A stretch of DNA of 64,000 nt from Candidatus Woesearchaeota archaeon (lineage in GTDB: Archaea > Nanobdellota > Nanobdellia > Woesearchaeales > ARS49): positions 266,220 through 330,219 of the forward strand of contig JAHWHZ010000001.1 of assembly GCA_019322895.1 (NCBI GenBank), in the 5' to 3' direction. The translations under genes were made by a program, and so were the position numbers. Below, in pieces: positions 12,811-64,000 of this stretch. Every line of letters starts with the position of its first letter. Positions within the stretch are counted from its first letter, which is position 1. The notes beneath the pieces were generated by a model. It was not told the origin of the DNA. It saw nothing but the letters and a program-made list of their open reading frames with translations, and made no database searches.

Positions 12811-12822
12811 TTTTCACCCCAC

Positions 12823-48604: not shown

Positions 48605-48670
48605 TTTTCAACCCCCTAACCAACTTTTTTTCAATAATTGTTGGTGATATATAAAGTTTTCGGTTCGTAA

Positions 48671-49813: not shown

Positions 49814-49845
49814 CTTTGTTTTTTAAGAGAGAAAAAAATAAAAAA

Positions 49846-50766
49846 TTATTTTACTACTTCCAGGATTGGTTTGCCGGCTTTGTCAAACTTCGGCTTTCCT
49901 TCCTTATCTCTGACAATCTTGAATTTCTTGCCATTGATTTTAATGATGTCCTTGCCCTTTTTCTGCTCTTCTTTCTTCTTTTCAGGAACTTTTAAAGCAT
50001 CAATAGCCTTCTTCTGAGCTTCTGGAAGCTTGTAGTCTTCTTTGCCTTCTTTTGTCAGGCCGAAAGCAGTCCTGATGTACTCGTGGTTTTCTTTCTTTCC
50101 ATCATTGTATCTGCTGTGTACTGCAAGAGACCATCTGTCAAAGCCTTTCTGGTGCCTTATTAATGCATTCCATACATCTTTTGGCACTTCAACATACCAT
50201 GAATCCCATGCTTTATTATCTACATCATCTTTAGCAAGATTCATTATGTTCTTGGCTTCTTTCTGTATCCTGCTCAAGAAGTTTGCTCTTATTCTTGTCT
50301 TCTCATAAGCAGTCTTTGCTGTTGTAGTTCCTTCTCTGCCGTAGTTTTTTCCAACTGCAGTATCAAAGACTTTTTCATCCAAGCCAGTCTCTACTTTGTC
50401 AATATTTCTTTCCTGATCTGTTGGGGTTAATCCACTTGCATATCCCCATACCTTGAATTTTCCTTTTCCTGTGAAAAAAGAATCAATTACAGTTTTGTAC
50501 AGGTCCCGCATTTTAATTAGATCTTCACCTGTCTCTCCTGCTCTGATTTTCTTGTCAATCCTTAGATAAGCAGTGCCGATTGCACTAAGCTCTTCAATAT
50601 TAAGCTTGCCGTCTTTTGATACTTTCTTGATTTGTTTAGCAGAATTTCTTGCAAGGTTTGTTGCATCTTTAATCTCTTTTTGCTGGCAGCCTCCTAAAAA
50701 TGTGTATCCTAAAACTGCTGCACCAGCTACCTGCAAACCTGTTTTCAAACCGTCATATGCTTTCAT
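49846..50766 (-). CDS. Hypothetical secreted or lipid-anchored protein with lysine-rich C-terminus
   Basis: N-terminal hydrophobic segment with LGGCQQ and a K-rich C-terminal tail. Confidence 0.4.
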   Translation of the reverse strand: MKAYDGLKTGLQVAGAAVLGYTFLGGCQQKEIKDATNLARNSAKQIKKVSKDGKLNIEELSAIGTAYLRIDKKIRAGETGEDLIKMRDLYKTVIDSFFTGKGKFKVWGYASGLTPTDQERNIDKVETGLDEKVFDTAVGKNYGREGTTTAKTAYEKTRIRANFLSRIQKEAKNIMNLAKDDVDNKAWDSWYVEVPKDVWNALIRHQKGFDRWSLAVHSRYNDGKKENHEYIRTAFGLTKEGKEDYKLPEAQKKAIDALKVPEKKKEEQKKGKDIIKINGKKFKIVRDKEGKPKFDKAGKPILEVVK

Positions 50767-50858
50767 TTTCTTGTCCCCCCGATTTATTTGTTAATCTTAA
50801 GTGTCAACATCTTTGTTTCACTCAAAAGTGACAGTAATATTTAAAGGTTTTGGTGAAC

Positions 50859-51989
50859 TTAATCATCTGAGCCGATTATGTCGCTGAGATATGTCTGGAT
50901 TGAAAATCCTGTATTCCACTGCGGCCTGCCCCATTTATCATGGTCTCCCTGCCAGGTGCATTCTAACCATCCTGTCAGGTAAAATCCTCTTCCAAGGTCA
51001 AGCTTCATTTTCAAAAGCGCGCCATATGCGTTGTGCTCATCTGCAGATACGCCAACAGAGTCTGAAATTTTCTTCTTGGCAACGAATTCTAGTGAGCCCG
51101 CAAGGTTTCTTTCCATCAGTTTTGTTCTGGCTTCTAGTCCGCCTGATACAACATATGTGTTTAATTTTGCAAGATTCTCAAAATGTGCATAGTTTGCACT
51201 GCCATTTAGTAGCGCAAACACATTATCTGTTATTCCTTGAAGAACATAGGCTGTTCCTACCAAATTGCTGTAATCTCCCTCTACTGGAATCTTGTCAACA
51301 CCCATTGATCCTTTGTATCTGTCTACTCCTTTGATTCCAAGCAGTTCGCATGGGCTTCCCATCAGGCTTGCTGCTGCAAGGGTGTTTGTAGGTTCTGATG
51401 CAAAAGATACTTTTGCACCAAGCAAGACATCTCCTGCATACAAGTCAATGGAGCCGTCATAATTCAGCCATTCATATCCTGCCTTTGCTTCTATGTATGC
51501 AAGCAGGTTCTTGTTGCCTATGTGCCATCCAAATCCGCCGACAAGTTTAGATAAGTCCCCGTAACAATTTCTGTCTTCCTGATTTTGGATGTCTGCTCTC
51601 ATCACTTGGTATAAGTTTCTGAAGTCAAGTGTAAGCCTTCCTTCATTCTCTTCTCCAATTTTTGCAAGAAGTTTTGATTGGATATTATAAAGGTCTAAAG
51701 CTTGGTGATGGCCTTGCCAGTTTCCTCCGGTGCTTATACAGGACCATAGATTAATATCTGTGCTGTTATTGATTTTATAGAACCAGCCTGTGTCAAAGTC
51801 TAGATCTGATTTCTTGGTTTTCTTGCTCTTTTTAGATTCTTCTTCTTTCTCTACTTTTTCAACTGTTTCATCATCGTCCATGAAATTCTCAAGCCTTAAA
51901 TCATCCCTGTCTTCTGCGCTTGCAGTTCTGGCAAGCAAAGCTATAAGTGCTGCTGTTGGAATTGTTAAAAGATATCTTTTGAAACTCAT
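50859..51989 (-). CDS. Secreted beta-rich protein (beta-barrel-like alternating pattern)
   Basis: Clear signal peptide (ALLARTASA) and an acidic linker. Amphipathic beta-strand-like alternation (YEWLNYDGSIDLYAGDVLLGAKVSFA...) ending ...TGFSIQTYL. Confidence 0.4.
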   Translation of the reverse strand: MSFKRYLLTIPTAALIALLARTASAEDRDDLRLENFMDDDETVEKVEKEEESKKSKKTKKSDLDFDTGWFYKINNSTDINLWSCISTGGNWQGHHQALDLYNIQSKLLAKIGEENEGRLTLDFRNLYQVMRADIQNQEDRNCYGDLSKLVGGFGWHIGNKNLLAYIEAKAGYEWLNYDGSIDLYAGDVLLGAKVSFASEPTNTLAAASLMGSPCELLGIKGVDRYKGSMGVDKIPVEGDYSNLVGTAYVLQGITDNVFALLNGSANYAHFENLAKLNTYVVSGGLEARTKLMERNLAGSLEFVAKKKISDSVGVSADEHNAYGALLKMKLDLGRGFYLTGWLECTWQGDHDKWGRPQWNTGFSIQTYLSDIIGSDD

Positions 51990-52148: not shown

Positions 52149-53228
52149 ATGATTTCAATTATCGGCGCAGGGCCTTCTGGATGCTTTCTTGCATATAAGC
52201 TTGCAAAAGCAGGTTTTGAAGTCAGTATTTTTGAAGAGCATGAAAAAGCAGGCCTGCCTGTGCAATGCACTGGCCTCGTAACTCCAAACCTGTTTAACCT
52301 AGTCCCATTAAAGAAATCATTTATTGTCAACAAGTTCAATTCAGTCAAGGTCATTGCACCAAACAATATTTCTGCTGAAATAAGAGTGCAGGAATACCTG
52401 CTTGACAGGAAAAAATTTGATAATTACTTTCTTGAAAAAGCACTGAATGCTGGCGCTAAAATCCATCTGAATCATAGGTTCTTGACAAAATCAGGGCAGC
52501 ATGCAGTCTTACAAAACAAGAATAAAATCAAGAAAATAAAGACAAAAATTCTTATAGGCGCAGACGGCCCATTAAGCCAGGTTGCAAAAACCGCAAATCT
52601 TTACGGCAAGCGGGAATTCTTTATCGGCATGCAGGCAACTGTGCAGGCAGACTTCAGCAAAAACACATACCAAACATTCTTTGGCAACATTGCGCCTGGC
52701 TTTTTTGCATGGATTGTTCCAGAATCCAGCACAAAAGCAAGAATAGGTCTGGCAACAAGAAAAAACACAAGGCATTATTTTGAGAATTTCCTGAAAAACA
52801 AAGGAAAAGTGATTGAAAAGCAGGCAGGCACCATCCCAATATATAATGGCAAAGCAGCTCAAAAAAAGAACACATATCTCATCGGCGACGCAGCAACTTT
52901 CTGCAAGGCAACTACTGGGGGAGGCCTTGTTCCTGGCCTGCAGTCTGCAAAAATACTGTCAGATTGTATAATCAACAAGAATAATTATGAATCTTCTTTA
53001 AAGAAATTAAGAAGACAGTTGTGGCTGCATACTTTGCTTAGATCCACACTAGACAGATTTAACACGCGGGATTACAATGAGTTAGTCAAGCAGATAAGTA
53101 ATCCAAGAATAAAGCAGCAGTTGTCAAGCAATAACAGGGATTCTCCAATAACACTCCTGCCAAAACTTTTGCTGGCAGAGCCGAAATTACTTTATTTTAG
53201 CAAGTGTCTGCTGCAAAAAAAGGTTTAA
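52149..53228 (+). CDS. Geranylgeranyl reductase-family FAD-dependent oxidoreductase
   Basis: FAD-binding IIGAGPSGCFLAYKLAKAG..FEE and VQCTGLV motifs. Confidence 0.7.
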   Translation: MISIIGAGPSGCFLAYKLAKAGFEVSIFEEHEKAGLPVQCTGLVTPNLFNLVPLKKSFIVNKFNSVKVIAPNNISAEIRVQEYLLDRKKFDNYFLEKALNAGAKIHLNHRFLTKSGQHAVLQNKNKIKKIKTKILIGADGPLSQVAKTANLYGKREFFIGMQATVQADFSKNTYQTFFGNIAPGFFAWIVPESSTKARIGLATRKNTRHYFENFLKNKGKVIEKQAGTIPIYNGKAAQKKNTYLIGDAATFCKATTGGGLVPGLQSAKILSDCIINKNNYESSLKKLRRQLWLHTLLRSTLDRFNTRDYNELVKQISNPRIKQQLSSNNRDSPITLLPKLLLAEPKLLYFSKCLLQKKV

Positions 53229-53250: not shown

Positions 53251-53343
53251 CAATGCCGCATGGCGAAGTTTTTGACTTCATATGCAATTACACATAAATC
53301 TGAGGCACAGGCAGTTTCATAACCAAGACGTAGCGCGGCATTG
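53251..53343. mobile_element. Family-2 93-bp terminal-inverted-repeat element (copy 2), inverted relative to copy 1
   Basis: CAATGCCGC...GCGGCATTG termini. Located between the GGR gene stop and the aglB promoter. Confidence 0.55.
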
Positions 53344-53431: not shown

Positions 53432-56400
53432 ATGTCTGATGATGAAATCGCAATAGACTTAAGCAAGATAACTCGGTTTTTCAAGCGAAAGAAAAAAGAA
53501 GAGGATAAGCTAGAAAAAGAAAGAGAAAAAGTAGAGATTAAGATAGAATCTGATAAAGAAGAAGTAAAAGAGCTGAAAAAAGAAGAACAGAAGATTATTG
53601 ATAAGGAAATCAAAATAGAGAAACAAAAGATGCATGCACTTGAAAAAGAAAAAAAAGCAATATCATCTGATGATGTCGCGATTGACTTTCAGAAGCTCAA
53701 GAAATTCTTTATCAAATACCAGATTCCAATATTATTAGTGCTGATTATTCTTCTGCAAGTGATTCCTAATTGGGGATTCCTTCCATGGGGCGGCATCTGG
53801 ATGAGAATGCAGACCCAGAACCTGCCGCAGTTAGACACGTCTGCAAGACAGTCTGTAGAGATGCAATATAAATTGCAGATCATGCAATCTATAGATCAGC
53901 AATATCCGCATCTTCCAGATGCAAGCAAGAAAAAATTAGTTGATGACAAATTTAATGAATTGTTGGAAAAAGAATCGAAAACAATCAATGCGCAGAGCAG
54001 GGAAGTCGCAGAAGAATGGAAAAAACAGTTTCAATATTCTTCAGATGGCGCGCAGTATGTATATATGCCTGATATTGATCCTTATCAATATTTAAGACTT
54101 GCAAGAAATATGATTGAAAAAGGCCATGGTTATGACGAATTAAAAGATGATATTCCTTGGAATAATCACAAAGTTGCTCCATTAGGGCGCCCATATGCTT
54201 TTCAATTTCATAGCCTTGTTCTGGCAGGCATTTATACAGTTATGAACTTCTTTAATTCAAATGTTGATTTGATGCATGCAGCAACATATTTTCCTATAAT
54301 CTTAATATTCTTGTCTTTGATTCCTGCATTCTTTATCGGTAGGCGTTTTGCAGGCAATGTTGGTGGTTTTTTCACTGCTTCAATGGTTGCTCTTTGTACT
54401 GCCTCTTTTGGCAGGACTCCTTGGGGGCATGCAGATACAGATGCGTATAATGTTTTCTTTCCATTGCTTATTTTGTGGATTTTTATTGGAGCATTCTCTG
54501 TTAAAGATACAAAGAAAAAATACGGATTGCTTATGTTCTCAGGTCTATTAATTGGAATTTATTCTGCTGCTTGGAGTGGTTGGTGGTATGTATTCTACGC
54601 AGTTCTTGGAGGAATGGGCGCGTATATGTTATATCTGCTAGTAGCACATAGAAAAACAATTGCAAAGAATTTTGTGAATATATTTAAAATAAATGCGATT
54701 AAGAATACTGTGATTTCTGGAGTAATATTTTTTATTTCTTCAGCGTTTTTTGTTTCTTTAATATCTTCATTTAATAAATTTATAATTGCATTCAGTAGAC
54801 CAATCAAATATAGCGCAATAAAAGAAGCAGCAAGAGCCACATTGTGGCCTAATGTATATACGACTGTTGCAGAACTTAATCCTGCCTCTCTAAAATCAGT
54901 AATTGGTTCTGTCGGAGGGCCTTTTCTCTTTGCAATTGCAGTGCTTGGCGTAATACTTATGTTGCTTAAAAAAGATGAATCTGGTAAATATGATGTAAAG
55001 TATTCTGCATTGCTTGTCGTATGGTTTATTGGAACAATGTATGCTTCTACAAAAGGAGTCAGATTTACTTTGCTTCTTGCGCCTGCCTTTTCAGTTGCAT
55101 TTGGCGTAGCATTGGGGCGGATATATCAGAAAGTAACAAACTGGTTTGATAAAGAGCTTAATATGAGCAAAATAATTACTGGCACTGTTTTGATAGTATT
55201 ATTTTCAATATTATTAATTGCTCCTGCAAAAGCAGATTTTAAACGGGCAAAAGCGGATATGCCGCTTGTTAATGATGCTTGGTGGAATAGCTTGACGAAA
55301 ATAAAAGAAGAGTCAAAATCAGACGCAATAATCAATTCTTGGTGGGATTTTGGTCATCATTTTAAATATATTGCAGATAGGGCAGTAACATTTGATGGGG
55401 GGAGCCAAAACACGCCAATGGCTCATTGGATTGGACACACATTATTAACAGACAATGAAAAAGAAGCAATTGGAATTTTAAGAATGCTTGATTGCGGCTC
55501 TAATACTGCTTTTGAAAGACTTCTGGAAGAAACTGGCGATACTATTGACTCAGTTAATTTACTTTATAAAATAATTGTGCTTGATAAAATCGCGGCTGCA
55601 GGAGAATTGGAAGCTGCTGGAATAAAGAATATTGATGAGGTGCTGAAATATACACACTGCGAGCCTCCTGAAAATTATTTTATCACTTCAGGAGATATGT
55701 TCAATAAAGCAGGTGTTTGGGGGCATTTTGGAAGCTGGAATTTTGAGAAAGCGTATATTTGGATGAATTTAAGAAAGCTGCCAAAAGATGAAATGATTAA
55801 GATAATGCAGGAAAAGTTCAACTACAGTGATGAAAAAGCAGAGCAGGTCTATTATAAAGTGCAATCAATAGACACTGAAAAAGAAGCAAATACTTGGATT
55901 TCTCCTTGGCCAGGATACACATCCCGTCTTCAAAACTGCAAGACTCAAAATAATGAAATAATCTGCAATAATGGTCTTATTGTAAACTTAGATGATTTAA
56001 GTGCAAAAATAAAGGTTAGCGGAGGAGAAGGTGTTCCAGAATCCTTGGTCTACATAGACGAAAATGGAGAATTTCAAGAAAAAATTTTTGCAAATTCAAA
56101 AATCCCTGTCTCCGCAGTGCTTGTGCTGTCTAAAAATGGTTACCAAAGTCTGTTGTGCGATCCTTTGCATGCAAAAGGCATGTTCACCAGATTATTCTTC
56201 ATGGATGGTCATGGTTTGAAGCATTTTGAATTATTTGATGAGCAGCAGCAGCCAACAGGAGAGATGATTTATGTTTGGAAGATTAATTGGGATGGTGGCG
56301 AGCCTAGGACTCATCGTGCTCTTATCAAAAAAACAACAGTTTCTCAAGGAGACAACGTTGAAGTGAATTATATCGGCTGGCTTGAGAACGGAACTGTCTT

Positions 56401-56662
56401 TGATTCAAGTATTGCTGGATGGAAAAATAAGAATATCACACAATACAGCAGTTTTGATGCATTTGAAACAAAACCTTTGAAATTCAAAAGCTTAAGCAAT
56501 CAAATGATCATGGGTTTTGATGCCGCAGTTGTCAATATGAACATCAATGAAACAAAGACAGTTAAGATTGCTCCAGAAGATGCTTATGGCATTGATCCGG
56601 ACGCGCATCCAATGGGAAACAAAACATTGAATTTCAAAATAAGGGTTGAAAAAATAAGTTAA
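53432..56662 (+). CDS. aglB: Oligosaccharyltransferase AglB/STT3 fused to a C-terminal FKBP-type PPIase domain; K/E-rich N-terminal extension
   Basis: Multi-TM core with the WWDFGHHF (WWDYG) motif. C-terminal GDNVEVNYIGWLENGTVFDSS...MIMGFDAAVVNMNINETKTV is an FKBP fold. First ATG is at 53432; the track start is GTG at 53396. Confidence 0.75.
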   Translation: MSDDEIAIDLSKITRFFKRKKKEEDKLEKEREKVEIKIESDKEEVKELKKEEQKIIDKEIKIEKQKMHALEKEKKAISSDDVAIDFQKLKKFFIKYQIPILLVLIILLQVIPNWGFLPWGGIWMRMQTQNLPQLDTSARQSVEMQYKLQIMQSIDQQYPHLPDASKKKLVDDKFNELLEKESKTINAQSREVAEEWKKQFQYSSDGAQYVYMPDIDPYQYLRLARNMIEKGHGYDELKDDIPWNNHKVAPLGRPYAFQFHSLVLAGIYTVMNFFNSNVDLMHAATYFPIILIFLSLIPAFFIGRRFAGNVGGFFTASMVALCTASFGRTPWGHADTDAYNVFFPLLILWIFIGAFSVKDTKKKYGLLMFSGLLIGIYSAAWSGWWYVFYAVLGGMGAYMLYLLVAHRKTIAKNFVNIFKINAIKNTVISGVIFFISSAFFVSLISSFNKFIIAFSRPIKYSAIKEAARATLWPNVYTTVAELNPASLKSVIGSVGGPFLFAIAVLGVILMLLKKDESGKYDVKYSALLVVWFIGTMYASTKGVRFTLLLAPAFSVAFGVALGRIYQKVTNWFDKELNMSKIITGTVLIVLFSILLIAPAKADFKRAKADMPLVNDAWWNSLTKIKEESKSDAIINSWWDFGHHFKYIADRAVTFDGGSQNTPMAHWIGHTLLTDNEKEAIGILRMLDCGSNTAFERLLEETGDTIDSVNLLYKIIVLDKIAAAGELEAAGIKNIDEVLKYTHCEPPENYFITSGDMFNKAGVWGHFGSWNFEKAYIWMNLRKLPKDEMIKIMQEKFNYSDEKAEQVYYKVQSIDTEKEANTWISPWPGYTSRLQNCKTQNNEIICNNGLIVNLDDLSAKIKVSGGEGVPESLVYIDENGEFQEKIFANSKIPVSAVLVLSKNGYQSLLCDPLHAKGMFTRLFFMDGHGLKHFELFDEQQQPTGEMIYVWKINWDGGEPRTHRALIKKTTVSQGDNVEVNYIGWLENGTVFDSSIAGWKNKNITQYSSFDAFETKPLKFKSLSNQMIMGFDAAVVNMNINETKTVKIAPEDAYGIDPDAHPMGNKTLNFKIRVEKIS

Positions 56663-56734
56663 ATTTTTCTTTTTAAGTATCTATCATAAAGTATTTAAAT
56701 AACTGACTGTTATAAGAATAAAGTGGGGGTTATA

Positions 56735-57409
56735 ATGAATAACACGCAGATAGTCATTGCAGCGTATAACGAAGAAAAAGCTATCCCATATGTAATAAAT
56801 GATTTATATAATCACGGCTATCATAACATAATTGTTGTTGATGACTGTTCTCGCGATAAGACTGCAGAAGTTGCTGAAAAAACCGGTGCAACAGTTCTTA
56901 GACACATAATCAATCTTGGGCAGGGCGCTGCTCTCAAGACAGGCATTGATTATGCAGTATCAAAAGGAGCAGAAATAATTGTCACATTTGATGCAGACGG
57001 CCAGCACATGGCAAAAGACATACCAAAGCTTGTTCATGCCATAGAACGCGGCTATGATGCTGCTCTTGGAAGCAGATTTCTTGGAAAAGCAGAAAATATT
57101 GGAATTATAAGAAAAATATTCCTAAAAGGTGGCGCTGTTATATTCAGACTTTTTTACAATGTAAAAGTCACAGACTCGCATAACGGACTAAGAGCCTTGT
57201 CTCGCAGAGCTGCAAAAAAAATTAATATGACTTGCAATAGAATGGAACACGCTTCTGAAATCATTGAAGAGCTTGGGAAGAAAAAAATAAGATATAGAGA
57301 AGTGCCTGTTACAATAAGATACACAGATTATTCAATGAAAAAAGGGCAGAGCACATGGAATGGTTTCAGGATTTTATTCAAGATGGTTATTAAATTTTTA
57401 GGAGGCTAA
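56735..57409 (+). CDS. GT2-family glycosyltransferase (dolichyl-phosphate hexose synthase-like)
   Basis: IVIAAYNEEKAI...IIVVDDCSRDKT and a DAD motif. Confidence 0.75.
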   Translation: MNNTQIVIAAYNEEKAIPYVINDLYNHGYHNIIVVDDCSRDKTAEVAEKTGATVLRHIINLGQGAALKTGIDYAVSKGAEIIVTFDADGQHMAKDIPKLVHAIERGYDAALGSRFLGKAENIGIIRKIFLKGGAVIFRLFYNVKVTDSHNGLRALSRRAAKKINMTCNRMEHASEIIEELGKKKIRYREVPVTIRYTDYSMKKGQSTWNGFRILFKMVIKFLGG

Positions 57410-57412
57410 ATA

Positions 57413-57742
57413 ATGGAAATTATAAGCATAATTTTAATCATATTTGCATTGTTTGCCTGGAGTAGAGCCATACTTAATTATAAAAAGAAAAGGTTATCTA
57501 TAAATGAATTTGTTTTTTGGACAATTGTATGGTTCTTAGTAATTCTTGTCAGTCTACTGCCTGCAATATTTAGCGAATTTGCTGAATTGATTGGTATACA
57601 ATCAGGCATAAACCTGCTTATATATGTAAGTATTGTTCTATTATTTTATCTAATGTATCGGTTGTATGTAAAAACAAAGCAAACTCATCAAGAGCTCACA
57701 AAAATCGTAAGAAATATTGCTATTCAAAAAAGAAAAAGGTAA
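57413..57742 (+). CDS. Small 3-TM membrane protein (DUF2304-like, GT2-associated)
   Basis: 109 aa with three hydrophobic helices. Tightly packed between two GT2 genes. Confidence 0.45.
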   Translation: MEIISIILIIFALFAWSRAILNYKKKRLSINEFVFWTIVWFLVILVSLLPAIFSEFAELIGIQSGINLLIYVSIVLLFYLMYRLYVKTKQTHQELTKIVRNIAIQKRKR

Positions 57743-58687
57743 ATGAACATGAAAAATAAAGAAATAAGTATTGTACTTCCAACATATAATGAAGAAAAAA
57801 ATGTCTTGCTGCTCTATAAAATATTAAAAAAAGTTCTTGATAGATTAAACAAACCCTATGAAATAATTTATGTTGATGACGGCAGTAAGGACAAGACCTT
57901 TGAGAACCTTAAAAAAATGCATAGCATTGATAAAAGAGTCAAGATAATCAAGTTCAGGAGAAATTTTGGCCAGACTGCTGCACTCGATGCAGGTTTTAAG
58001 TTTGCATCCGGCAATATAATTATTGCATTGGATGCCGACCTCCAGGATGACCCTAGGTATATCCCAAAATTTGTGAATAAGTTAAATGAAGGGTATGACT
58101 GCGTGTGTGCCTGGAGATATAAAAGGAAAGACTCCTTTTCAAAGAAAATTCTTTCCAGAATTGCGAACTTCTTAAGATATATCCTAATCAATGATAAAAT
58201 TCACGATTCTGGCTGCAGTTTCAAGGCATATAGAAAAGAATGTTTCGAGGACCTGGATTTATATGGAGAAATGCATCGTTTCGTTCCAGCTCTTCTTAAA
58301 ATGCAGGGCTTTAAAATTACTGAACTAAAAGTAAAACACTATCCGCGAAAATTCGGAAAAACAAAATATAATATTAAAAGAGTCTTGAAAGGCTTTGTTG
58401 ATTTACTGAATGTGTGGTTCTGGCAGAAGTTTTCAAGCAGGCCGCTTCATTTGTTTGGCGGAACAGGAATTATTATGTGCGGTCTGGGAATGCTTGTGGG
58501 CATTTATCTGTTGGTACTCAAATTTTTCTTCGGAAAAGGCATTGGAAACAGGCCATTGTTGTTATTGGCGATTTTGCTGGTGATTTTAGGAATCCAATTC
58601 TTGGTTTTTGGTGTTTTAGCCGACCTATTGATGAAGATTTATTATAGAAAAAAGATGAATTATAAGATTAAAGAAATAATAAAATGA
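57743..58687 (+). CDS. GT2-family glycosyltransferase with C-terminal TM helices (Dpm1/AglD-like)
   Basis: ISIVLPTYNEEKNV...IIYVDDGSKDKT and DADLQDD motifs, with two C-terminal TM helices. Confidence 0.75.
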   Translation: MNMKNKEISIVLPTYNEEKNVLLLYKILKKVLDRLNKPYEIIYVDDGSKDKTFENLKKMHSIDKRVKIIKFRRNFGQTAALDAGFKFASGNIIIALDADLQDDPRYIPKFVNKLNEGYDCVCAWRYKRKDSFSKKILSRIANFLRYILINDKIHDSGCSFKAYRKECFEDLDLYGEMHRFVPALLKMQGFKITELKVKHYPRKFGKTKYNIKRVLKGFVDLLNVWFWQKFSSRPLHLFGGTGIIMCGLGMLVGIYLLVLKFFFGKGIGNRPLLLLAILLVILGIQFLVFGVLADLLMKIYYRKKMNYKIKEIIK

Positions 58688-59292
58688 AAATACTATCACT
58701 ACTAAAAAAAGTGCCTATTGACTTAGGACAAGGAAATCTAAGGAGAACTACTAAAGGAAAATTAATTGCGCAGGCACTAATCCCAAGGGCAAGAGCGGGT
58801 ATGACTGCATTAGATGTCGGCTGCAGAGAAGGTCACCAAACAAGATACTTACGAAAAAAAGGATATAATGTAACATCAATAGATATTGAAAAAATAGTCC
58901 CCGAATGTATTGTAATGGATGCAAACAAAAAATTAAAATTTGAAGACAATAGTTTTGATTTAATTTGGGGCAGTGAAATTATTGAGCATCTTGATAATCC
59001 TGCTTTTTCTATCAGCGAATTCAAAAGAGTATTAAAACCAGGAGGAAGACTTATACTTACCACACCCAATAGTTATTTTTGTCTTGTTAGAGTAGCATAC
59101 ATTTTATTCAATCTATCCCCACGAAAGATTCAACGCAAAGATCATAAGCATTATTTTAATATTCAGAATATAAAACAATTATTTCCGCATGGCAGAATCT
59201 ATGGATTTTTCCCTTATTTACTTCTAAAATTCAAGATTAAAAGATTGGTTGGACTCTTGTCGCCAACATTTGTTATCTTGGATAAAAAATAA
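58684..59292 (+). CDS. Class I SAM-dependent methyltransferase
   Basis: LDVGCREGHQTRYL and LKPGGRLILTTPN motifs. Confidence 0.7.
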   Translation: MKILSLLKKVPIDLGQGNLRRTTKGKLIAQALIPRARAGMTALDVGCREGHQTRYLRKKGYNVTSIDIEKIVPECIVMDANKKLKFEDNSFDLIWGSEIIEHLDNPAFSISEFKRVLKPGGRLILTTPNSYFCLVRVAYILFNLSPRKIQRKDHKHYFNIQNIKQLFPHGRIYGFFPYLLLKFKIKRLVGLLSPTFVILDKK

Positions 59293-59294: not shown

Positions 59295-60275
59295 TTACTT
59301 TTTACGTATAGCAAATAGTTTCAAGCAAGCAAGCCCGCTTATTCCTAAAATCATAAAAAATAGAATAACAATCAAATGATATACAAACGAGGAAGATATT
59401 GCGATTTCTTTTGAGAGACCCAATAGAAAAAAGAAGATGGACCATGCTGCTTCTATTGTTCCAAATCCTGCAATTCCATGTATAGGCAGCATAACTGCAA
59501 AAAATGTCAGAGAGACGCCTGCAACAATTGTCCAAAATGTAAGAGTAATTCCCATTCCTGCAAATAACGCGCAGCACATTAAATAAATTGAAATCCATGT
59601 CAGAATTGAAAACAAAGCTATGATAAAAATATGCTTTATCGACTTCATTGTATTGAAATGTCTGATAGTTTCCTGCATTTTCGTTAGGATAAATTTAATA
59701 ATTTTTGATTTTTTAATCTGTTTAAGCGCCAACAGTTTCTTTAAAATCTTAAGATACGTTTTATTAAAAAATACAAGCGATATTATTAGCAGAACAAGAA
59801 CAAACAGGATTATGCATGTTGCAAAAAGAATTGTATGCATGGGTTGTTTTAAGTCTATGAAAAATACAGAAATAATAAATATTACTGCAATGGCTGCGAA
59901 ATCAAAAGCCCTTGCAACAAAAAGACTGAACATTGCTTTAGTGCCGCTTATTTTTTGTTTTTTAATCAGATATATGAAAGATAACTCCCCTGTTCTAAAT
60001 GGAAGCAGCTGGTTAATCATGTTGTGGACGCACACAATATTAAATAAAAGAAACATCCTGAGTTCGTGTGTCAGCAAGAATTTGAATCTCCATGCCCGGA
60101 ACACATAGCTAAATACGTAACATATGAATGCAAACAGTATCCAATACAAGGATAATCTGGAAAATAACTCGCTCAAGTCATGAACGGTTATTTGAGTCAG
60201 CAGGAAATAAACCAAGACAAAAGCAAGGATAACTGCAAAAACTATCTTAACTGCCTTTTTTTGTTTTTTTATCAT
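59295..60275 (-). CDS. Flippase-like polytopic membrane protein (lysyl-PG-synthase TM-domain / UPF0104-like)
   Basis: 326 aa with about 8 TM helices. Sits in the glycosylation cluster. Family call is tentative. Confidence 0.45.
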   Translation of the reverse strand: MIKKQKKAVKIVFAVILAFVLVYFLLTQITVHDLSELFSRLSLYWILFAFICYVFSYVFRAWRFKFLLTHELRMFLLFNIVCVHNMINQLLPFRTGELSFIYLIKKQKISGTKAMFSLFVARAFDFAAIAVIFIISVFFIDLKQPMHTILFATCIILFVLVLLIISLVFFNKTYLKILKKLLALKQIKKSKIIKFILTKMQETIRHFNTMKSIKHIFIIALFSILTWISIYLMCCALFAGMGITLTFWTIVAGVSLTFFAVMLPIHGIAGFGTIEAAWSIFFFLLGLSKEIAISSSFVYHLIVILFFMILGISGLACLKLFAIRKK

Positions 60276-61030
60276 ATTTTTTTGGCGATAAAACAGTGAT
60301 TGATTGAAGAAAAGTTTGAAAAATATTTCTTATCCAGTTTATTTATTAAATTGAATAATTTATAGATGCTATTATTCTCAAGCCCCGGTTTAATCCTAAA
60401 GGTCGCTTTGTTTTTCAGGCCAACAACTTTCAGCAAAGGAATAAGTATGTAATTGGCAATATATGTTGTATAATTTATCGATAATGCCAGCAAAAAATGT
60501 GACCTTGGTTCATACTTTGTTATCTTAAATCCCGCATCCACAAGCAGTTTCTTGATTTCTTCTTCAGTGTACAACCTGTGATGCCCCCATGCCCACATTC
60601 CGATTGGAATATGCAGATTAAATAATCCAAGAAATCTATTTATCGGATCATAAAAAAAAGGATATTTTTTATTTGGCACAGAAAAAATAAGTTTTCCATT
60701 ATTTTTAAGAACCCTGCATATTTCTGCTATTGCTTTTTTATCTTTTTTAACATGCTCAAGGACATCGATGCAAACTATAGTATCAAATGCAGATGAATTG
60801 AATGGTAATTTCTGCACATCTGCGCAGGTAACAGAGTATTTTTTCAAATTAACTAACATAGAAGGATCTATATCTATGCCTTTAAAAGCGAGATTTCTTT
60901 TTTTGTAAAGACTGAAATAATGTCCTTCTCCGCATCCAACATCAAGGAGATGTCCAGCATTTACAGAGAGATTTTCATCTACAAAATCCATTTTATTCTT
61001 GTAAATCGGGCTTAGTCTCTTATCCATCAT
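60272..61030 (-). CDS. Class I SAM-dependent methyltransferase
   Basis: LLDVGCGEGHY, VCIDVLEHV and LKNNGKLIFSVPN motifs. Confidence 0.7.
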   Translation of the reverse strand: MMDKRLSPIYKNKMDFVDENLSVNAGHLLDVGCGEGHYFSLYKKRNLAFKGIDIDPSMLVNLKKYSVTCADVQKLPFNSSAFDTIVCIDVLEHVKKDKKAIAEICRVLKNNGKLIFSVPNKKYPFFYDPINRFLGLFNLHIPIGMWAWGHHRLYTEEEIKKLLVDAGFKITKYEPRSHFLLALSINYTTYIANYILIPLLKVVGLKNKATFRIKPGLENNSIYKLFNLINKLDKKYFSNFSSINHCFIAKKI

Positions 61031-61032: not shown

Positions 61033-62691
61033 TTATTCAACATCAATATAGTACAGAGTATAATCACCAGAAGTATACTCATATTTTTTTTCCTTTACAG
61101 TATTTTTTTGTAGCAATGCATCTAATTCTGACATGTCAAAACTGCCGCCTTTTTTCAACAAAAAGTAAACTGGTTTTATGCCTTGTTTTGTTTTTTGAAA
61201 TGCAAATTGCTTGAGTGAGTAATTATTACTGAAATAATCCCATGCTTCTTTTTCATTAAATATTTCCATCACCCACTGATACACATAAAGCCATTGTACA
61301 TTGTATTCCTCTTCAGCTTTTTTTATTAGCGAGAGATTATAAGTCAAATGATTGGCCTTTCTATCTGCATGCCACAAAATTCCAGGTATCTGATGTCTTC
61401 CGCGGAATATCCTCTCTTCAGACGCCGAATGTCTTTGAATATATTCTCCAGCGATATCATGTCCTGGAAACTGAGTATTAAATTGCCGTTCCCATGCAGT
61501 CTTAGAAGGCAAGAATATTATTATGAACAAAATTATTAATAAAACAAACTTGACATATTTTCTATATTTTGATTTTGCAAATCTGCTTAAAGTATTTGAA
61601 ATAACTAAAAAAGAGTAGCCCATCAAGATAATAAATAATGGTGCTATAGGATATTGGTGATAACTATGTCCTTTTAGATAGCTTTGTGTGATAAAAATCC
61701 AGATTGGCGAGCCTAAAATGAATGCAATCGTGAATTTTTTCCCAAAACTTTTGTTTTTAATAAGAAATATTAATATTATTCCCAAAAGTATAAACCAAAA
61801 TCCTATTATTGTGAAATTATCTGCTATGAATGCTTTAGTTATGCTATAAAAAGATTTGCTGAATATTACAAATTTAAAAGATTTGGCAAACATTGCTGTC
61901 CCTAACTGTTCTGCTTTTATTTTTGTGTAGAGAAGCCAGAGCGGAAATAACAGTAGAATAAATCCAGACAAGTAATACTTCCAGTTATTCCATGGCTTGA
62001 TTTCTTTTAGAAATTTCTTGTAAGGAAATGTGAATAGTATAGGAAAAATTATTATAAAAAAATCATATTTGTTCAATAAAGCAAGCACAAGGAATAATGA
62101 GAAATATATGAACTGGTTGGTCTTGAAGTTTTCTCGCCAGGATACATAAAAATAAGCAGCAAGAACCATGCAAGGCAAAGCAAAATTGATTACTTGCACT
62201 TGCCTCCCAAAAAAAACCAGCAAGGGATTGATTGCAGTCAATAGTGCGCAAATCAAGGCAAGATCCTTTCTCTTAAATAATTTGTTAACCAGCAAAAACA
62301 TGAAAAGAATTACAGATGTGCTAGCAAGTATGGCAATTAATCTGGCAATCAATAATGAAGGTCCAAAAATTCTGAAAAAAACAGAAGTAATCAATGGAAG
62401 CATGGGCAAAGCATCTGTATGCGCGCCATCTATTTGTACTCCATAACCAGGGTAGTCCCATTCAGGAATAAAAACTCCATGTTTAAAAAAACCATTTCTT
62501 GCAAAATTTCTAGCTTCTGTTAGATAATGTGCTTCTTTCCAATTATGATAACCCACAACAGGATAATCAACATGATACATTCTTAGATAAAATCCTAATA
62601 ACAGTATTAATATCAAAAATAGCCAAACCCAATTTTTCTTTAAAAAAGATATTTTAATGGTTATATCTTCCTGTTTTTCCAAATGCCGCAC
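61033..62691 (-). CDS. GT-C fold glycosyltransferase (ArnT/PMT-like; dolichyl-phosphate-sugar dependent)
   Basis: 552 aa with about 11 TM helices. The N-terminal loop and overall topology are typical of the ArnT/PMT/GT83 family. Confidence 0.6.
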   Translation of the reverse strand: MRHLEKQEDITIKISFLKKNWVWLFLILILLLGFYLRMYHVDYPVVGYHNWKEAHYLTEARNFARNGFFKHGVFIPEWDYPGYGVQIDGAHTDALPMLPLITSVFFRIFGPSLLIARLIAILASTSVILFMFLLVNKLFKRKDLALICALLTAINPLLVFFGRQVQVINFALPCMVLAAYFYVSWRENFKTNQFIYFSLFLVLALLNKYDFFIIIFPILFTFPYKKFLKEIKPWNNWKYYLSGFILLLFPLWLLYTKIKAEQLGTAMFAKSFKFVIFSKSFYSITKAFIADNFTIIGFWFILLGIILIFLIKNKSFGKKFTIAFILGSPIWIFITQSYLKGHSYHQYPIAPLFIILMGYSFLVISNTLSRFAKSKYRKYVKFVLLIILFIIIFLPSKTAWERQFNTQFPGHDIAGEYIQRHSASEERIFRGRHQIPGILWHADRKANHLTYNLSLIKKAEEEYNVQWLYVYQWVMEIFNEKEAWDYFSNNYSLKQFAFQKTKQGIKPVYFLLKKGGSFDMSELDALLQKNTVKEKKYEYTSGDYTLYYIDVE

Positions 62692-62790: not shown

Positions 62791-63945
62791 ATGGCAAAAA
62801 TATGTTTTGTGAATCCAACAATCCTGATGAAAAGGCCTATTGCTGAATTAATCAATAATGTAGATGGGCATGAAATTGGATTGCTCTGTCCTACTGAAAT
62901 GGGGAAAAAGCTGGACAATTCTTACCATTTCAGCAATTCTGTTAAAAGAGCAAAAATTCACACATATTCTACAATTAAGCTGCCGTTTGTGTCTTATGAA
63001 TGGCCTATTCCTCTTCCTTTGTTTTATTTCAAGGCATTTAAGATATTCAAAGAGTATGATGTGGTCCACATGTGGGTTTATTTCTATATGAGCAGCTTCT
63101 GGATTACTTTTGCAAAGTTATTCTTTCCAAAAACAAAGCTTATCTTGACAATTGATACATTTCCCGGAGAATCTTTTGGTTCTGGAAAAGTTTTTGATTC
63201 TTTATTTAAGATATATCACGCAATATTTGGATGGTTTGTCTTTGGTGTTCCCAATACTATCACGCTTTATGGAAAATCCTTGATTCCTTATGCAAAAAAG
63301 CTGGGAATCCGGCTGAAAAAGACAACAGTTGCACCCACAGGCATTAATATTAGCAAGTTTGACGGCCCATATAAGGATATTAGAAAAGAATTCAACATCA
63401 AAAAAGATGAAATTGTTCTGTTATTTATTGGTTTGTTGCTCCCGCGAAAAGGAATTGACATAATAATCAAGACAATTTCAAGATTAAGAAATAAAAGAGT
63501 CAGGATGATTCTGGTTGGTGCTGGGCCTGACAAGAAAAGATATGAAAATATGGCCAAGAGGTATCAGCTGCAGGATAAAATAATATTCACTGGATTCAGA
63601 AAAGATGTGAAGAACTTCTACAGGTCATCAGATATCTTCTTTTTTCCATCAAGAGGAGAAGGCCTTGCAGGCGTGATAATGGAGGCAATGACCTGCGGCC
63701 TGCCTGTTGTAACATCGAATATCCCTTGTACGCCAGATTTAGTTAGACATCAAGAAAATGGTTTTTTATGTAATTCCGAGTCTGCTAAAGATTATGCTTT
63801 CTTATTGAATAATCTAATTGAAAATAATAAAATAAGAACTAGATTTGGCGCACAGTCAAAAAGATCGATAAAATTATTCAATTGGGAAAAAAGCATCAAA
63901 AGTTTTGAGAGGTTATACGGCAATGTGCGGCATAAACGGATTTAA
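62791..63945 (+). CDS. GT4-family (group 1) glycosyltransferase
   Basis: EGLAGVIMEAMTCGLPVVTSNI (E-x7-E region) and a C-terminal Rossmann half. Confidence 0.8.
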   Translation: MAKICFVNPTILMKRPIAELINNVDGHEIGLLCPTEMGKKLDNSYHFSNSVKRAKIHTYSTIKLPFVSYEWPIPLPLFYFKAFKIFKEYDVVHMWVYFYMSSFWITFAKLFFPKTKLILTIDTFPGESFGSGKVFDSLFKIYHAIFGWFVFGVPNTITLYGKSLIPYAKKLGIRLKKTTVAPTGINISKFDGPYKDIRKEFNIKKDEIVLLFIGLLLPRKGIDIIIKTISRLRNKRVRMILVGAGPDKKRYENMAKRYQLQDKIIFTGFRKDVKNFYRSSDIFFFPSRGEGLAGVIMEAMTCGLPVVTSNIPCTPDLVRHQENGFLCNSESAKDYAFLLNNLIENNKIRTRFGAQSKRSIKLFNWEKSIKSFERLYGNVRHKRI

Positions 63946-64000
63946 CTGGTCTAACAAAAAATTAATCAAGCAGATAAATAATACTGTAAAGCATCGGGGA
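63923..64000 (+). CDS. Asparagine synthase (glutamine-hydrolysing)-like amidotransferase, N-terminal fragment; continues beyond the window
   Basis: MCGINGFNWSNKKLIKQINNTVKHRG has the class-II GATase N-terminal Cys and the HRGPD-type motif. Overlaps the GT4 end by 23 nt. Confidence 0.45.
   Translation, partial: MCGINGFNWSNKKLIKQINNTVKHRG

What the first reader, a model, noticed from the sequence alone, without database searches (positions are those of the whole stretch)
53432..56662. AglB oligosaccharyltransferase fused to a C-terminal FKBP-type PPIase, heading a 10.6-kb glycosylation island
One 1088-aa ORF combines a coiled K/E-rich N-terminus, the STT3/AglB multi-TM core with the WWDFG motif, and a complete FKBP domain at the C-terminus. 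An OST covalently linked to a prolyl isomerase could couple glycan transfer to folding of the extracytoplasmic substrate. Downstream are two GT2s, a DUF2304-like membrane protein, two SAM methyltransferases, a flippase-like protein, a GT-C enzyme, a GT4 and an AsnB-like amidotransferase. The cluster is immediately preceded by a family-2 terminal-inverted-repeat element.
Basis: partly seen in the sequence, partly recalled or inferred. Interest (0 to 1): 0.6.

Follow-up and report, generated by a model that had tools for sequence, protein, structure and literature searches.

The report
Archaeal glycosylation enzyme with built-in prolyl isomerase
One uninterrupted archaeal gene joins the membrane enzyme that attaches sugars to secreted proteins (AglB) to a protein-folding catalyst (an FKBP prolyl isomerase) on the outer face of the membrane, and because this design is conserved in hundreds of uncultured DPANN archaea it suggests that glycosylation and folding are physically linked there.

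Summary
Window 53432-56662 (+) is one uninterrupted 1076-aa gene. It contains a complete STT3/AglB oligosaccharyltransferase with all catalytic motifs invariant. A C-terminal FKBP domain with a conserved active site follows, with no membrane segment in between, so the FKBP lies outside the cell next to the catalytic domain.

It is not an assembly artefact: the identical protein occurs in independent assemblies. More than 100 protein clusters (40-88% identity) and 50 of the 80 closest species-representative genomes carry the fusion.

New points:
- Three relatives carry a parvulin-type isomerase at the same junction instead of FKBP, which argues that isomerase activity is what is selected.
- A distant Altiarchaeota AglB family also carries FKBP, followed by a Cys-rich CxxC extension.
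- Free relatives of the FKBP domain are lipobox-type secreted proteins.
- The cytoplasmic N-terminal tail holds an AglB-specific repeated motif.
- The conserved gene core is GGR-like reductase, AglB, PpgS-like GT2, DUF2304, ArnC-like GT2. The rest of the island varies.

Most likely function: an oligosaccharyltransferase with a tethered foldase acting on the same newly exported chains. This coupling is inferred, not shown. I found no paper describing it. Verdict: a new variant of a known kind, of moderate to high interest.

The parts
53432..56662 (+). aglB-FKBP fusion gene (1076 aa plus stop)
   Evidence: Uninterrupted ORF. Identical protein P0001 on 7 independent contigs. AF2 model mean pLDDT 88, pTM 0.79.
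53432..53719 (+). Cytoplasmic K/E-rich N-terminal tail (aa 1-96). It carries two copies of the motif (D/E)(D/E)x[IL]x[IF]D[FL]xK[IL]xxFF[KI], at aa 3-17 and aa 81-96.
   Evidence: Low pLDDT and helical prediction. The motif occurs 1-4 times in homologues. It was found in 42/83 AglB ORFs against 2/4758 other ORFs, and nowhere else in the window.
53720..55255 (+). Multi-pass GT-C membrane core (aa 97-608, about 13 TM helices), with a long helical insertion in external loop 1 (aa ~120-200)
   Evidence: Pfam STT3. Aligns to PglB 3RCE over aa 263-659. Foldseek top hits are PglB, STT3A/B and AfAglB. Helix hydropathy.
54071..54079 (+). First acidic motif D214-I-D216 in external loop 1 ('MPDIDPYQY')
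   Evidence: D214 in 65/66 and D216 in 66/66 of the aligned fusion proteins.
54434..54442 (+). Second acidic motif D335-T-D337
   Evidence: Invariant in 66/66. Aligns to the 'YDTD' of PglB in the 3RCE alignment.
54860..54874 (+). External loop 5 motif T477-T-V-A-E481 (TIXE/SVSE-type)
   Evidence: Invariant. Aligns to the PglB 'TIME' motif.
55340..55354 (+). WWDFG catalytic motif (aa 637-641)
   Evidence: W637, W638, D639 and G641 are invariant in 66/66. Pfam STT3-PglB_core.
55694..55720 (+). DK/MI-type motif D755-M756-x-x-K759-x-x-x-W763
   Evidence: D755, K759 and W763 are invariant; M756 is in 65/66. Assigned by pattern and spacing only.
55256..56296 (+). Extracytoplasmic C-terminal catalytic/globular domain (aa 609-955), with four invariant Cys (C688, C743, C836, C845)
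   Evidence: No hydrophobic segment after TM13 (maximum 19-residue hydropathy 1.2).
56330..56647 (+). FKBP-type PPIase domain (aa 967-1072). It is a short type without an IF insert and has a 16-aa insertion in the 40s loop.
   Evidence: Pfam FKBP_C 62.7 bits. PDB 1IX5/FKBP25 sequence hits. Foldseek FKBP13/FKBP12 with target TM 0.75-0.82. FKBP12 alignment. Conservation of Y980, F990, D991, I1026, F1029, Y1052, H1059 and F1068.
52149..53228 (+). Geranylgeranyl-reductase-family flavoprotein directly upstream; a candidate polyprenol/dolichol reductase
   Evidence: TIGR02032 184 bits against a cut-off of 158.8. Pfam. Found next to aglB in 41/80 related loci.
53251..53343 (.). 93-bp element with perfect 9-bp terminal inverted repeats, in the aglB upstream intergenic region
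   Evidence: Second copy at 21447-21537. Absent upstream of aglB in diverged relatives. Fold not more stable than shuffles. No Rfam hit.
56723..57409 (+). GT2, PpgS/AglJ-like polyprenyl-phosphate sugar synthase
   Evidence: Pfam PF00535. Best NCBIfam match is PpgS at 202 bits, below the cut-off. Downstream of aglB in 64/80 loci.
57413..57742 (+). DUF2304 small membrane protein
   Evidence: Pfam PF10066, E 8e-25. Present in 46/80 loci.
57743..58687 (+). GT2, ArnC/PgfS-like polyprenyl-phosphate glycosyltransferase
   Evidence: Present in 61/80 loci.
58684..59292 (+). SAM-dependent methyltransferase (variable part of the island)
   Evidence: Present in 9/80 loci.
59295..60275 (-). LPG_synthase_TM / TIGR00374 flippase-like membrane protein
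   Evidence: Present in 2/80 loci.
60272..61030 (-). SAM-dependent methyltransferase
61033..62691 (-). GT-C glycosyltransferase (PMT_2). The public gene call is 515 aa, from a later start codon.
62791..63945 (+). GT4 glycosyltransferase
63923..64000 (+). Start of an AsnB-type glutamine amidotransferase (590 aa in the full contig), cut by the window end
   Evidence: L001 gene 13107-14879 with GATase_7/Asn_synthase. N-terminus 'MCGINGF'.

Best explanation
The gene encodes a single-subunit archaeal oligosaccharyltransferase (AglB) whose extracytoplasmic C-terminal domain continues directly into a catalytically competent FKBP prolyl isomerase.

Shown: the architecture, the conservation of both catalytic sites, the conservation of the fusion across many genomes, and the absence of any membrane segment between the catalytic domain and the FKBP.

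Inferred from the established topology of STT3/PglB/AglB: the FKBP sits on the outer face of the membrane beside the glycosylation site.

Inferred mechanism: newly exported, still unfolded polypeptides are N-glycosylated at N-x-S/T sequons by the AglB part, using dolichyl-phosphate-linked sugars made by the adjacent GT2/DUF2304/GT2 genes. The tethered isomerase acts on the same chains. It speeds up slow prolyl isomerisation, and possibly holds segments transiently, so that folding proceeds right after glycosylation or in step with it. In cells with no periplasm, the fusion both retains the foldase at the surface and places it at the site where unfolded substrates appear.
For: - Both domains pass curated thresholds.
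- All OST motifs are invariant in 66 fusion proteins, and the core aligns to PglB catalytic residues.
- The AF2 model is confident, with PglB/STT3/AglB and FKBP13/FKBP12 as structural matches.
- FKBP12 active-site positions Y26, F36, D37, I56, Y82, H87 and F99 are conserved, with W59 replaced by F.
- There is no TM segment after TM13, and the external domain has four invariant Cys.
- The fusion is present in more than 100 clusters at 40-88% identity, in 50/80 species-representative genomes, and in about 55 clusters at 50% identity.
- A parvulin PPIase replaces FKBP at the same junction in P0071, L062 and P0121.
- A distant Altiarchaeota AglB family also carries FKBP.
- Free relatives of this FKBP have signal peptides with lipobox-like Cys, so they are extracytoplasmic tethered foldases.
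- The same genome already has a separate TM-anchored FKBP at 11866-12813. A generic tethered isomerase alone therefore does not explain the fusion.
- Eukaryotic precedent for an FKBP positioned beside STT3A: FKBP11 (PMC12804085).
Against: - No activity, topology or substrate data exist.
- About 29 of the 80 closest homologues lack any PPIase domain and have no PPIase gene within 6 kb, so the domain is dispensable for AglB function.
- The FKBP lacks the IF chaperone insert of archaeal SlyD-type FKBPs.
- Human FKBP11 at the OST appears to act non-catalytically, so proximity to an OST does not by itself imply isomerase action.
- Neighbouring secreted proteins are not enriched in sequons.
Confidence: 0.6

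Rival explanations
1. Pure tethering. The FKBP is a general extracellular foldase that merely uses AglB as a convenient membrane anchor with an outward-facing C-terminus. There is no functional relation to glycosylation.
For: Free relatives of the domain are anchored by lipobox-type signal peptides, which shows that anchoring is the recurring need. Many close AglB homologues do without the domain. Standalone parvulins are common in related organisms.
Against: Two unrelated PPIase families were joined to AglB at the same junction. Across the 83 fetched loci, FKBP- and parvulin-like sequence was found only in AglB-type ORFs. A very distant AglB lineage carries the fusion too. This genome already has an independently TM-anchored FKBP.
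Confidence: 0.25
2. Non-catalytic adaptor. The FKBP fold serves as a protein-protein interaction module (for example docking a partner, the S-layer or the Sec machinery), as proposed for human FKBP11 at OST-A.
For: In the FKBP11 structure the ligand pocket is buried and no isomerase role is inferred (PMC12804085). W59 is replaced by F and F46 by L.
Against: Active-site residues are near-invariant across proteins only 40% identical. Replacement by a parvulin, which has a different fold but the same chemistry, is hard to explain by a fold-specific docking role.
Confidence: 0.08
3. Cis-acting regulator. The isomerase works on prolyl bonds of AglB itself, for example in external loop 5 or the catalytic domain, switching the enzyme between states.
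For: The two parts are covalently linked through a short linker. P473 and P611 are invariant prolines in external segments.
Against: There is no precedent in OSTs. FKBP-less homologues keep the same prolines and motifs. The idea cannot be tested with the tools available here.
Confidence: 0.05
4. Artefact. Two adjacent genes were merged by a sequencing or assembly error.
For: None found.
Against: The identical 1076-aa product occurs on 7 contigs from independent assemblies. The same architecture occurs in more than 100 diverged clusters and 50 species-representative genomes.
Confidence: 0.01

Closest known systems
AglB / PglB / STT3 oligosaccharyltransferases (GT-C, Pfam PF02516; structures 3RCE, 5OGL, 3WAK, 7E9S)
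   Same: Multi-pass core followed by an external globular domain. It has two acidic motifs, a TIXE-type loop-5 motif, WWDxG and a DK/MI-type motif. It sits in a gene neighbourhood of lipid-linked sugar synthesis.
   Different: Carries a C-terminal PPIase domain, an ~80-aa helical insertion in external loop 1, and a ~96-aa K/E-rich cytoplasmic tail with a repeated motif. It scores far below the cut-offs of the curated AglB (TIGR04154) and PglB (NF050801) models.
Ost3/Ost6 (TUSC3/MagT1) thioredoxin-like subunits of the eukaryotic OST (established knowledge)
   Same: A folding-related catalyst is physically attached to the OST on the non-cytoplasmic side, linking glycosylation to the folding state of the substrate.
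   Different: Those are separate subunits with thiol-oxidoreductase chemistry. Here the catalyst is a prolyl isomerase in the same polypeptide. The Altiarchaeota relatives add a CxxC-containing extension that might be analogous, but this is unconfirmed.
Human FKBP11 at the OST-A secretory translocon (PMC12804085; PDB 9N9J)
   Same: An FKBP domain is positioned on the lumenal/external side next to STT3. 9N9J chains appear among the structural matches.
   Different: FKBP11 is a separate single-pass protein, is recruited through the ribosome and CCDC134, and is thought to act non-catalytically.
PrsA (Bacillus lipoprotein parvulin foldase) and Mip/FkpA-type extracytoplasmic FKBPs (established knowledge)
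   Same: Membrane-tethered or periplasmic PPIases that fold exported proteins. Free relatives of the window's FKBP have lipobox-like signal peptides, and some AglB relatives carry a parvulin instead.
   Different: Those are anchored by a lipid or their own domains, not fused to a glycosyltransferase. They have no link to N-glycosylation.
Archaeal cytosolic FKBPs with an IF insert (MtFKBP17, PDB 1IX5; MjFKBP26, 3PRB)
   Same: Closest solved FKBP by sequence (1IX5, E 5e-10).
   Different: The fused domain has no IF chaperone insert. It has an insertion in the 40s loop instead and is predicted to be external rather than cytosolic.
Mycobacterial PpgS (Rv3631) with its DUF2304 partner (NCBIfam NF058614; pairing from established knowledge)
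   Same: The GT2 at 56723-57409 has PpgS as its best match and is followed by a DUF2304 gene.
   Different: The score of 202 bits is below the equivalog cut-off of 370. The setting is archaeal and next to AglB.

Membership tests
STT3/AglB/PglB oligosaccharyltransferase (PF02516) | Profile match above the curated threshold | tested here: met
   129.9 bits against a cut-off of 24.5. STT3-PglB_core 24.8 bits against 23.
STT3/AglB/PglB oligosaccharyltransferase (PF02516) | GT-C fold: about 13 TM helices plus an external C-terminal domain | tested here: met
   AF2 pLDDT 88. Foldseek hits to PglB 6GXC at E 2e-26, and to STT3A and AfAglB.
STT3/AglB/PglB oligosaccharyltransferase (PF02516) | Acidic DxD-type motifs that bind the metal and the acceptor amide | tested here: met
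   D214/D216 and D335/D337 are invariant or nearly so. D335/D337 align to the PglB DTD.
STT3/AglB/PglB oligosaccharyltransferase (PF02516) | TIXE/SVSE motif in external loop 5 | tested here: met
   T478-V-A-E481 is invariant and aligns to the PglB TIME.
STT3/AglB/PglB oligosaccharyltransferase (PF02516) | WWDxG motif | tested here: met
   WWDFG at aa 637-641, invariant in 66/66.
STT3/AglB/PglB oligosaccharyltransferase (PF02516) | DK or MI motif forming the Ser/Thr pocket | tested here: inconclusive
   An invariant D755-M756-x-x-K759-x-x-x-W763 has the right spacing but mixes features of both motif types. It was assigned by pattern only.
STT3/AglB/PglB oligosaccharyltransferase (PF02516) | Transfer of a lipid-linked glycan to Asn of N-x-S/T | not testable with these tools
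   Needs an enzyme assay.
Archaeosortase-A-associated AglB subfamily (TIGR04154) | Score above the subfamily cut-off | tested here: not met
   63 bits against a cut-off of 450.
PglB equivalog (NF050801) | Score above the equivalog cut-off | tested here: not met
   61 bits against a cut-off of 1300.
FKBP-type PPIase (PF00254) | Profile match above the curated threshold | tested here: met
   62.7 bits against a cut-off of 21.1, covering profile positions 2-93 of 94.
FKBP-type PPIase (PF00254) | FKBP fold (five-stranded sheet around a short helix) | tested here: met
   Foldseek hits to FKBP13 4NNR and FKBP2 2PBC with target TM about 0.8, and to FKBP12 with 0.75.
FKBP-type PPIase (PF00254) | Active-site residues (FKBP12 Y26, F36, D37, F46, V55, I56, W59, Y82, F99) | tested here: met
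   Y980, F990, D991, I1026, Y1052, H1059 and F1068 are conserved in 60-66 of 66 sequences. W59 is replaced by F (63/66), F46 by L and V55 by M/V/L.
FKBP-type PPIase (PF00254) | Prolyl isomerase activity / FK506 binding | not testable with these tools
   Needs a protease-coupled or NMR assay.
SlyD/archaeal chaperone-type FKBP | Insert-in-flap (IF) chaperone domain | tested here: not met
   Only 11 residues lie between the 'AYG' and 'TLNF' elements. The extra residues are in the 40s loop.
Extracytoplasmic location of the PPIase | Same side of the membrane as the AglB catalytic domain | tested here: met
   No hydrophobic segment after TM13 (maximum hydropathy 1.2). The outward orientation of the catalytic domain itself rests on established STT3/PglB/AglB structures, not on an experiment here.

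The most novel reading that the evidence does not exclude
The isomerase is mechanistically coupled to glycosylation rather than merely co-located. It keeps proline-containing segments of newly exported chains in a conformation that AglB can bind, or releases them into folding straight after transfer. DPANN archaea would then have independently built into one polypeptide the glycosylation-folding coupling that eukaryotes achieve with accessory OST subunits. In Altiarchaeota the polypeptide may also include a CxxC redox domain.
Probability: 0.3. Interest if true: 0.8.

Novelty: new variant of a known kind. Interest (0 to 1): 0.62.

Why it matters
Oligosaccharyltransferases need unfolded acceptor segments, so glycosylation competes with folding. 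Eukaryotes manage this competition with accessory subunits: Ost3/Ost6-type oxidoreductases, and FKBP11/CCDC134 at the translocon.

A prokaryotic OST that carries its own folding catalyst would be a natural, minimal and experimentally tractable model of that coupling. The case is stronger because the catalyst is conserved over deep divergence and is interchangeable between two unrelated isomerase families.

It also bears on how genome-reduced, periplasm-less DPANN archaea mature their surface proteins, which mediate their episymbiotic lifestyle.

Practically, the proteins are currently auto-named 'FKBP-type peptidyl-prolyl cis-trans isomerase' or 'STT3 domain-containing protein'. Either name hides half of the function.

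Tried and rejected
- **Frameshift or misassembly.** Rejected.
- **Inverted-repeat element as a known RNA.** There were no Rfam hits at gathering threshold and no tRNAs in the window. Its fold is no more stable than shuffled sequence (z -0.48). It is absent upstream of aglB in diverged relatives. Its nature is unresolved, and it is not part of the conserved locus.
- **Upstream secreted, TM-anchored proteins (44853-51989, - strand) as sequon-rich substrates.** Sequon density is 0-0.8 per 100 aa, which is not enriched. Dropped.
- **More AglB-parvulin fusions.** A search with the parvulin domain found only one further fragment (P0121) among the 120 listed hits. These fusions are rare.
- **The N-terminal motif in other proteins.** It was absent from the window and from 4758 flanking ORFs.
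- **PPIase genes next to FKBP-less aglB.** None were detected within 6 kb by single-sequence phmmer. Divergent ones could have been missed.
- **Fold assignment of the Altiarchaeota CxxC extension.** Foldseek output was dominated by FKBP hits, and the PDB sequence search gave only E 0.49 to a thioredoxin domain. Left as a lead.
- **Literature.** Five searches (AglB+FKBP, oligosaccharyltransferase+Woesearchaeota, AglB+DPANN, AglB+peptidyl-prolyl, STT3+FKBP+archaea) found no description of the fusion. Subscription-only literature was not covered.


Full report

The + strand carries one open reading frame from 53396 (GTG) or 53432 (ATG) to the stop at 56660-56662. The ATG at 53432 gives 1076 aa. 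That is the start used by the public gene call for the identical protein P0001, and it fits the N-termini of homologues.

Pfam finds three domains:
- STT3 at aa 189-577 (E 2e-37, 129.9 bits against a cut-off of 24.5).
- STT3/PglB/AglB core around the WWDFG motif, at aa 634-685.
- FKBP_C at aa 967-1072 (E 4e-17, 62.7 bits against a cut-off of 21.1).

The identical 1076-aa product is encoded on seven contigs from independent assemblies (Logan SRR6963591, JGI 3300018080, ENA ERZ27256796, and a 705-kb NCBI contig).

**2. Anatomy of the protein**

An AlphaFold2 model built on 66 homologues is confident (mean pLDDT 88, pTM 0.79). Only the first ~85 residues are disordered.

By Foldseek, the membrane core and external domain match bacterial PglB best (6GXC, E 2e-26), then STT3A/B and Archaeoglobus AglB. 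The last ~110 residues match FKBP13, FKBP2, FKBP25 and FKBP12, with target TM-scores of 0.75-0.82. By sequence, the nearest solved chains are PglB 3RCE and the Methanothermococcus FKBP 1IX5.

All catalytic OST motifs are present. Across 66 fusion proteins that are only 40-88% identical, they are invariant, apart from D214 (65/66) and M756 (65/66):
- D214-x-D216 in external loop 1.
- D335-x-D337, which aligns to the PglB DTD.
- T478-V-A-E481, which aligns to the PglB TIXE motif.
- R544.
- W637-W-D-x-G641.
- A DK/MI-type element, D755-M-x-x-K759-x-x-x-W763.

The protein scores far below the cut-offs of the curated archaeosortase-associated AglB model and the PglB equivalog model. It is therefore a divergent AglB, not a member of those subfamilies.

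After the last membrane helix (aa ~580-594) no segment is hydrophobic enough to cross the membrane. The maximum 19-residue hydropathy is 1.2. The external domain holds four invariant cysteines. The outward orientation of the STT3/PglB/AglB C-terminal domain is established from solved structures, so the FKBP must be extracytoplasmic.

Aligned to human FKBP12, the FKBP keeps Y26, F36, D37, F48, I56, Y82, H87 and F99. It replaces W59 with F and F46 with L. These positions are conserved in 60-66 of 66 homologues. The domain has no insert-in-flap chaperone module. Instead it has a 16-residue insertion in the 40s loop.

Two sequons inside the FKBP domain are conserved: N1063-K-T in 63/66 and N1001-I-T in 44/66. 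These are possible self-glycosylation sites, but this is untested.

**3. How widespread is it?**

The first database search returned 493 relatives. Of the 120 listed, the great majority carry STT3 plus FKBP_C. They are named by their sources 'FKBP-type peptidyl-prolyl cis-trans isomerase' or 'STT3 domain-containing protein', from Candidatus Woesearchaeota or Nanoarchaeia.

Among species-representative genomes, at least 588 loci encode relatives. Of the best 80:
- 50 have the FKBP in the same reading frame.
- One (L062) has a parvulin instead.
- About 29 have neither. These end at the conserved 'VWKVDW' or continue into short acidic or N/S/T-rich tails.

In the library clustered at 50% identity, 44 representatives match the junction-plus-FKBP query at E ≤ 1e-30, and about 55 matches span both parts.

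A rough neighbour-joining tree of the AglB core, without support values, puts FKBP-bearing forms in all major branches. FKBP-less clades are interspersed, and the two parvulin-bearing forms lie apart from each other. This fits an old fusion with repeated loss and replacement, but a supported phylogeny is needed.

**4.

*(a) An isomerase swap.* P0071 (1108 aa, a complete gene on its contig), L062 (1225-aa ORF) and the fragment P0121 carry a PPIC/parvulin rotamase domain. It follows the same 'WK(V/I)DW' junction where the window protein has FKBP. Pfam scores for Rotamase_3 are 90-118 bits. Two unrelated folds with the same chemistry at the same position argue that prolyl isomerase activity is the selected property, not an FKBP-specific binding surface.

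*(b) A second lineage.* P0368 and 13 relatives (1126-1396 aa) include one named Candidatus Altiarchaeota. They sit in an unmistakably archaeal context next to a Glycos_transf_4 and a Wzx-type flippase. Their AglB shares only about 22% identity with the window protein in the core. They nonetheless have an FKBP after the homologous junction.

In this lineage the FKBP is followed by a ~160-aa extension with eight invariant cysteines. One pair forms a CxxC at the start of a helix that follows a β-strand. That is the signature position in thioredoxin-like folds. Fold and sequence searches did not confirm a thioredoxin-like fold, so it remains a lead.

*(c) The relatives of the domain.* Free proteins closest to this FKBP are 118-155 aa and have signal peptides ending in a lipobox-like Cys. 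They are tethered extracytoplasmic foldases. The window itself encodes another FKBP at 11866-12813 (-), with an N-terminal basic signal-anchor. A generic surface-tethered isomerase therefore already exists in this genome.

**5. Surroundings**

Comparison with 80 related loci shows that only part of the island is conserved:

| Gene | Position relative to aglB | Related loci with it |
|---|---|---|
| GGR-family flavoprotein | directly upstream | 41/80 |
| PpgS/AglJ-like GT2 | downstream | 64/80 |
| DUF2304 | downstream | 46/80 |
| ArnC/PgfS-like GT2 | downstream | 61/80 |

The methyltransferases, the flippase-like protein, the PMT_2 GT-C enzyme and the GT4 are variable, each present in 2-21 of 80 loci.

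Both conserved GT2s resemble polyprenyl-monophosphate sugar synthases. This fits a dolichyl-phosphate-based donor pathway. The GGR-family enzyme is a plausible dolichol reductase; that assignment is an inference from family knowledge.

The 93-bp element with 9-bp terminal inverted repeats lies in the 203-bp gap upstream of aglB. It has one more copy in the window and is specific to this genome.

**6. An unexplained feature**

The cytoplasmic N-terminal tail contains 1-4 copies of the motif (D/E)(D/E)x[IL]x[IF]DFxK[IV]xxFFK. The copies are embedded in K/E-rich sequence, and the last copy abuts TM1.

In the sequence examined, the motif is specific to these AglBs. It occurs in 42 of 83 AglB ORFs against 2 chance-like hits in 4758 other ORFs, and nowhere else in the window. 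It could be an interfacial amphipathic helix or a docking site. By analogy only, human FKBP11 contacts the ribosome through a basic helix.

**7. Mechanism and rivals**

*Best-supported reading (0.6).* This is a bifunctional surface enzyme. AglB glycosylates unfolded, newly exported chains, and the tethered isomerase acts on the same chains, so that folding follows glycosylation without the foldase diffusing away.

*Main rival (0.25).* AglB is only an anchor. Against this stand three observations: two isomerase families were recruited to AglB specifically, a 22%-identical lineage keeps the fusion, and this genome already has a separately anchored FKBP.

*Other rivals.* A non-catalytic adaptor role like that of FKBP11 (0.08) is disfavoured by active-site conservation and the parvulin swap. 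A cis-regulatory role on AglB's own prolines (0.05) cannot be tested here. An artefact (0.01) is refuted.

*Against any strong coupling.* About a third of close homologues lack the domain, so it is not required for AglB activity.

**8. Comparison with what is known, and novelty**

The protein is a member of the STT3/AglB family and carries a bona fide FKBP domain (see the membership table).

Functionally, the nearest parallels are:
- Eukaryotic OST accessory factors: Ost3/Ost6/TUSC3/MagT1 oxidoreductases, and FKBP11 beside STT3A (PMC12804085).
- Bacterial tethered foldases: PrsA and Mip/FkpA.

I found no OST described as covalently carrying a foldase, and five literature searches returned no description of this fusion. 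The sequences and their automatic domain annotations are already public.

I rate it a new variant of a known kind, with interest 0.62. It would surprise glycosylation specialists moderately. It also offers a compact, testable system for studying the relation between glycosylation and folding. The functional claim, however, is still inference.

Noticed in passing
window 53432-53719 (aa 1-96); homologues P0011-P0120: The cytoplasmic tail of these AglBs carries 1-4 copies of the motif (D/E)(D/E)x[IL]x[IF]DFxK[IV]xxFFK within K/E-rich sequence. It is specific to AglB among about 4800 ORFs examined. Its function is unknown.
   Followed up: partly
window 53251-53343 and 21447-21537: Two copies (opposite orientation, ~72% identical core) of a ~92-bp element with perfect 9-bp terminal inverted repeats CAATGCCGC/GCGGCATTG. 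Zero are expected by chance. There is no Rfam match and no unusually stable fold, and the element is absent from diverged relatives. It could be a MITE-like element or a small RNA.
   Followed up: partly
window 19348-19441 and 25544-25637: A second family of ~94-nt intergenic elements (79% identical) closed by a long terminal stem (GCATAGCAC...GTGCTATGC). Predicted folds are more stable than shuffles (z -2.0 and -4.0). No Rfam hit.
   Followed up: partly
window 11866-12813 (-): A separate ~315-aa FKBP-domain protein with a basic N-terminus and one TM helix (signal-anchor), so it is probably also displayed outside the cell. The FKBP_C match is partial (profile positions 4-67), consistent with an inserted domain.
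   Followed up: partly
P0368, P0384-P0396; L085:6001-10050: A distant (Altiarchaeota-labelled) AglB family also has a C-terminal FKBP. It is followed by a ~160-aa extension with eight invariant Cys, including a CxxC at the start of a helix (thioredoxin-like signature). The fold is not confirmed.
   Followed up: partly
P0071 (L084:131-3457), L062:5839-9513, P0121: AglB relatives with a parvulin (PPIC) rotamase domain at the junction where the window protein has FKBP. They are rare: 3 were found.
   Followed up: yes
L075:2-757 and 748-3660: An ORF ending in an FKBP domain lies immediately upstream of a second, FKBP-less aglB. This suggests tandem aglB paralogues, one with and one without the isomerase.
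   Followed up: no
L073:8329-9078, L033:2851-3600 and other FKBP-less homologues: Where the FKBP is missing, the C-terminus is often a low-complexity tail rich in N-x-T/S sequons (for example 'NKSAITNKTTTGIATNKTLDNVTTENATANTT'). These may be heavily self-glycosylated stalks.
   Followed up: no
window 56330-56647 (aa 1001-1003, 1063-1065): Two sequons inside the FKBP domain are conserved across the fusion family: N-K-T in 63/66 and N-I-T in 44/66. The lipobox-type free FKBPs read 'AGKTL' at the first site, without the Asn. This may indicate glycosylation of the domain by its own enzyme.
   Followed up: partly
window 56723-57742: The GT2 plus DUF2304 pair resembles the mycobacterial PpgS/Rv3632 polyprenyl-phosphate aminosugar synthase pair (best NCBIfam hit is PpgS, below cut-off). 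The pair is conserved next to aglB in most relatives.
   Followed up: partly
L007, L013, L019, L021 and about 20 other loci: Many MAG records that carry this Woesearchaeal-type aglB are titled 'uncultured Methanosarcinales archaeon'. One is titled Aminicenantes, and protein records are titled Dojkabacteria or Firmicutes. These are probably taxonomic mislabels or binning errors.
   Followed up: no
window 44853-51989 (-): A run of five genes upstream on the opposite strand. At least three have signal peptides, and two end in a C-terminal TM anchor. Pfam hits on record are weak Big/cadherin-like and CARDB-like matches and a CLIPPER match. They are likely surface proteins but are not enriched in sequons.
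   Followed up: partly
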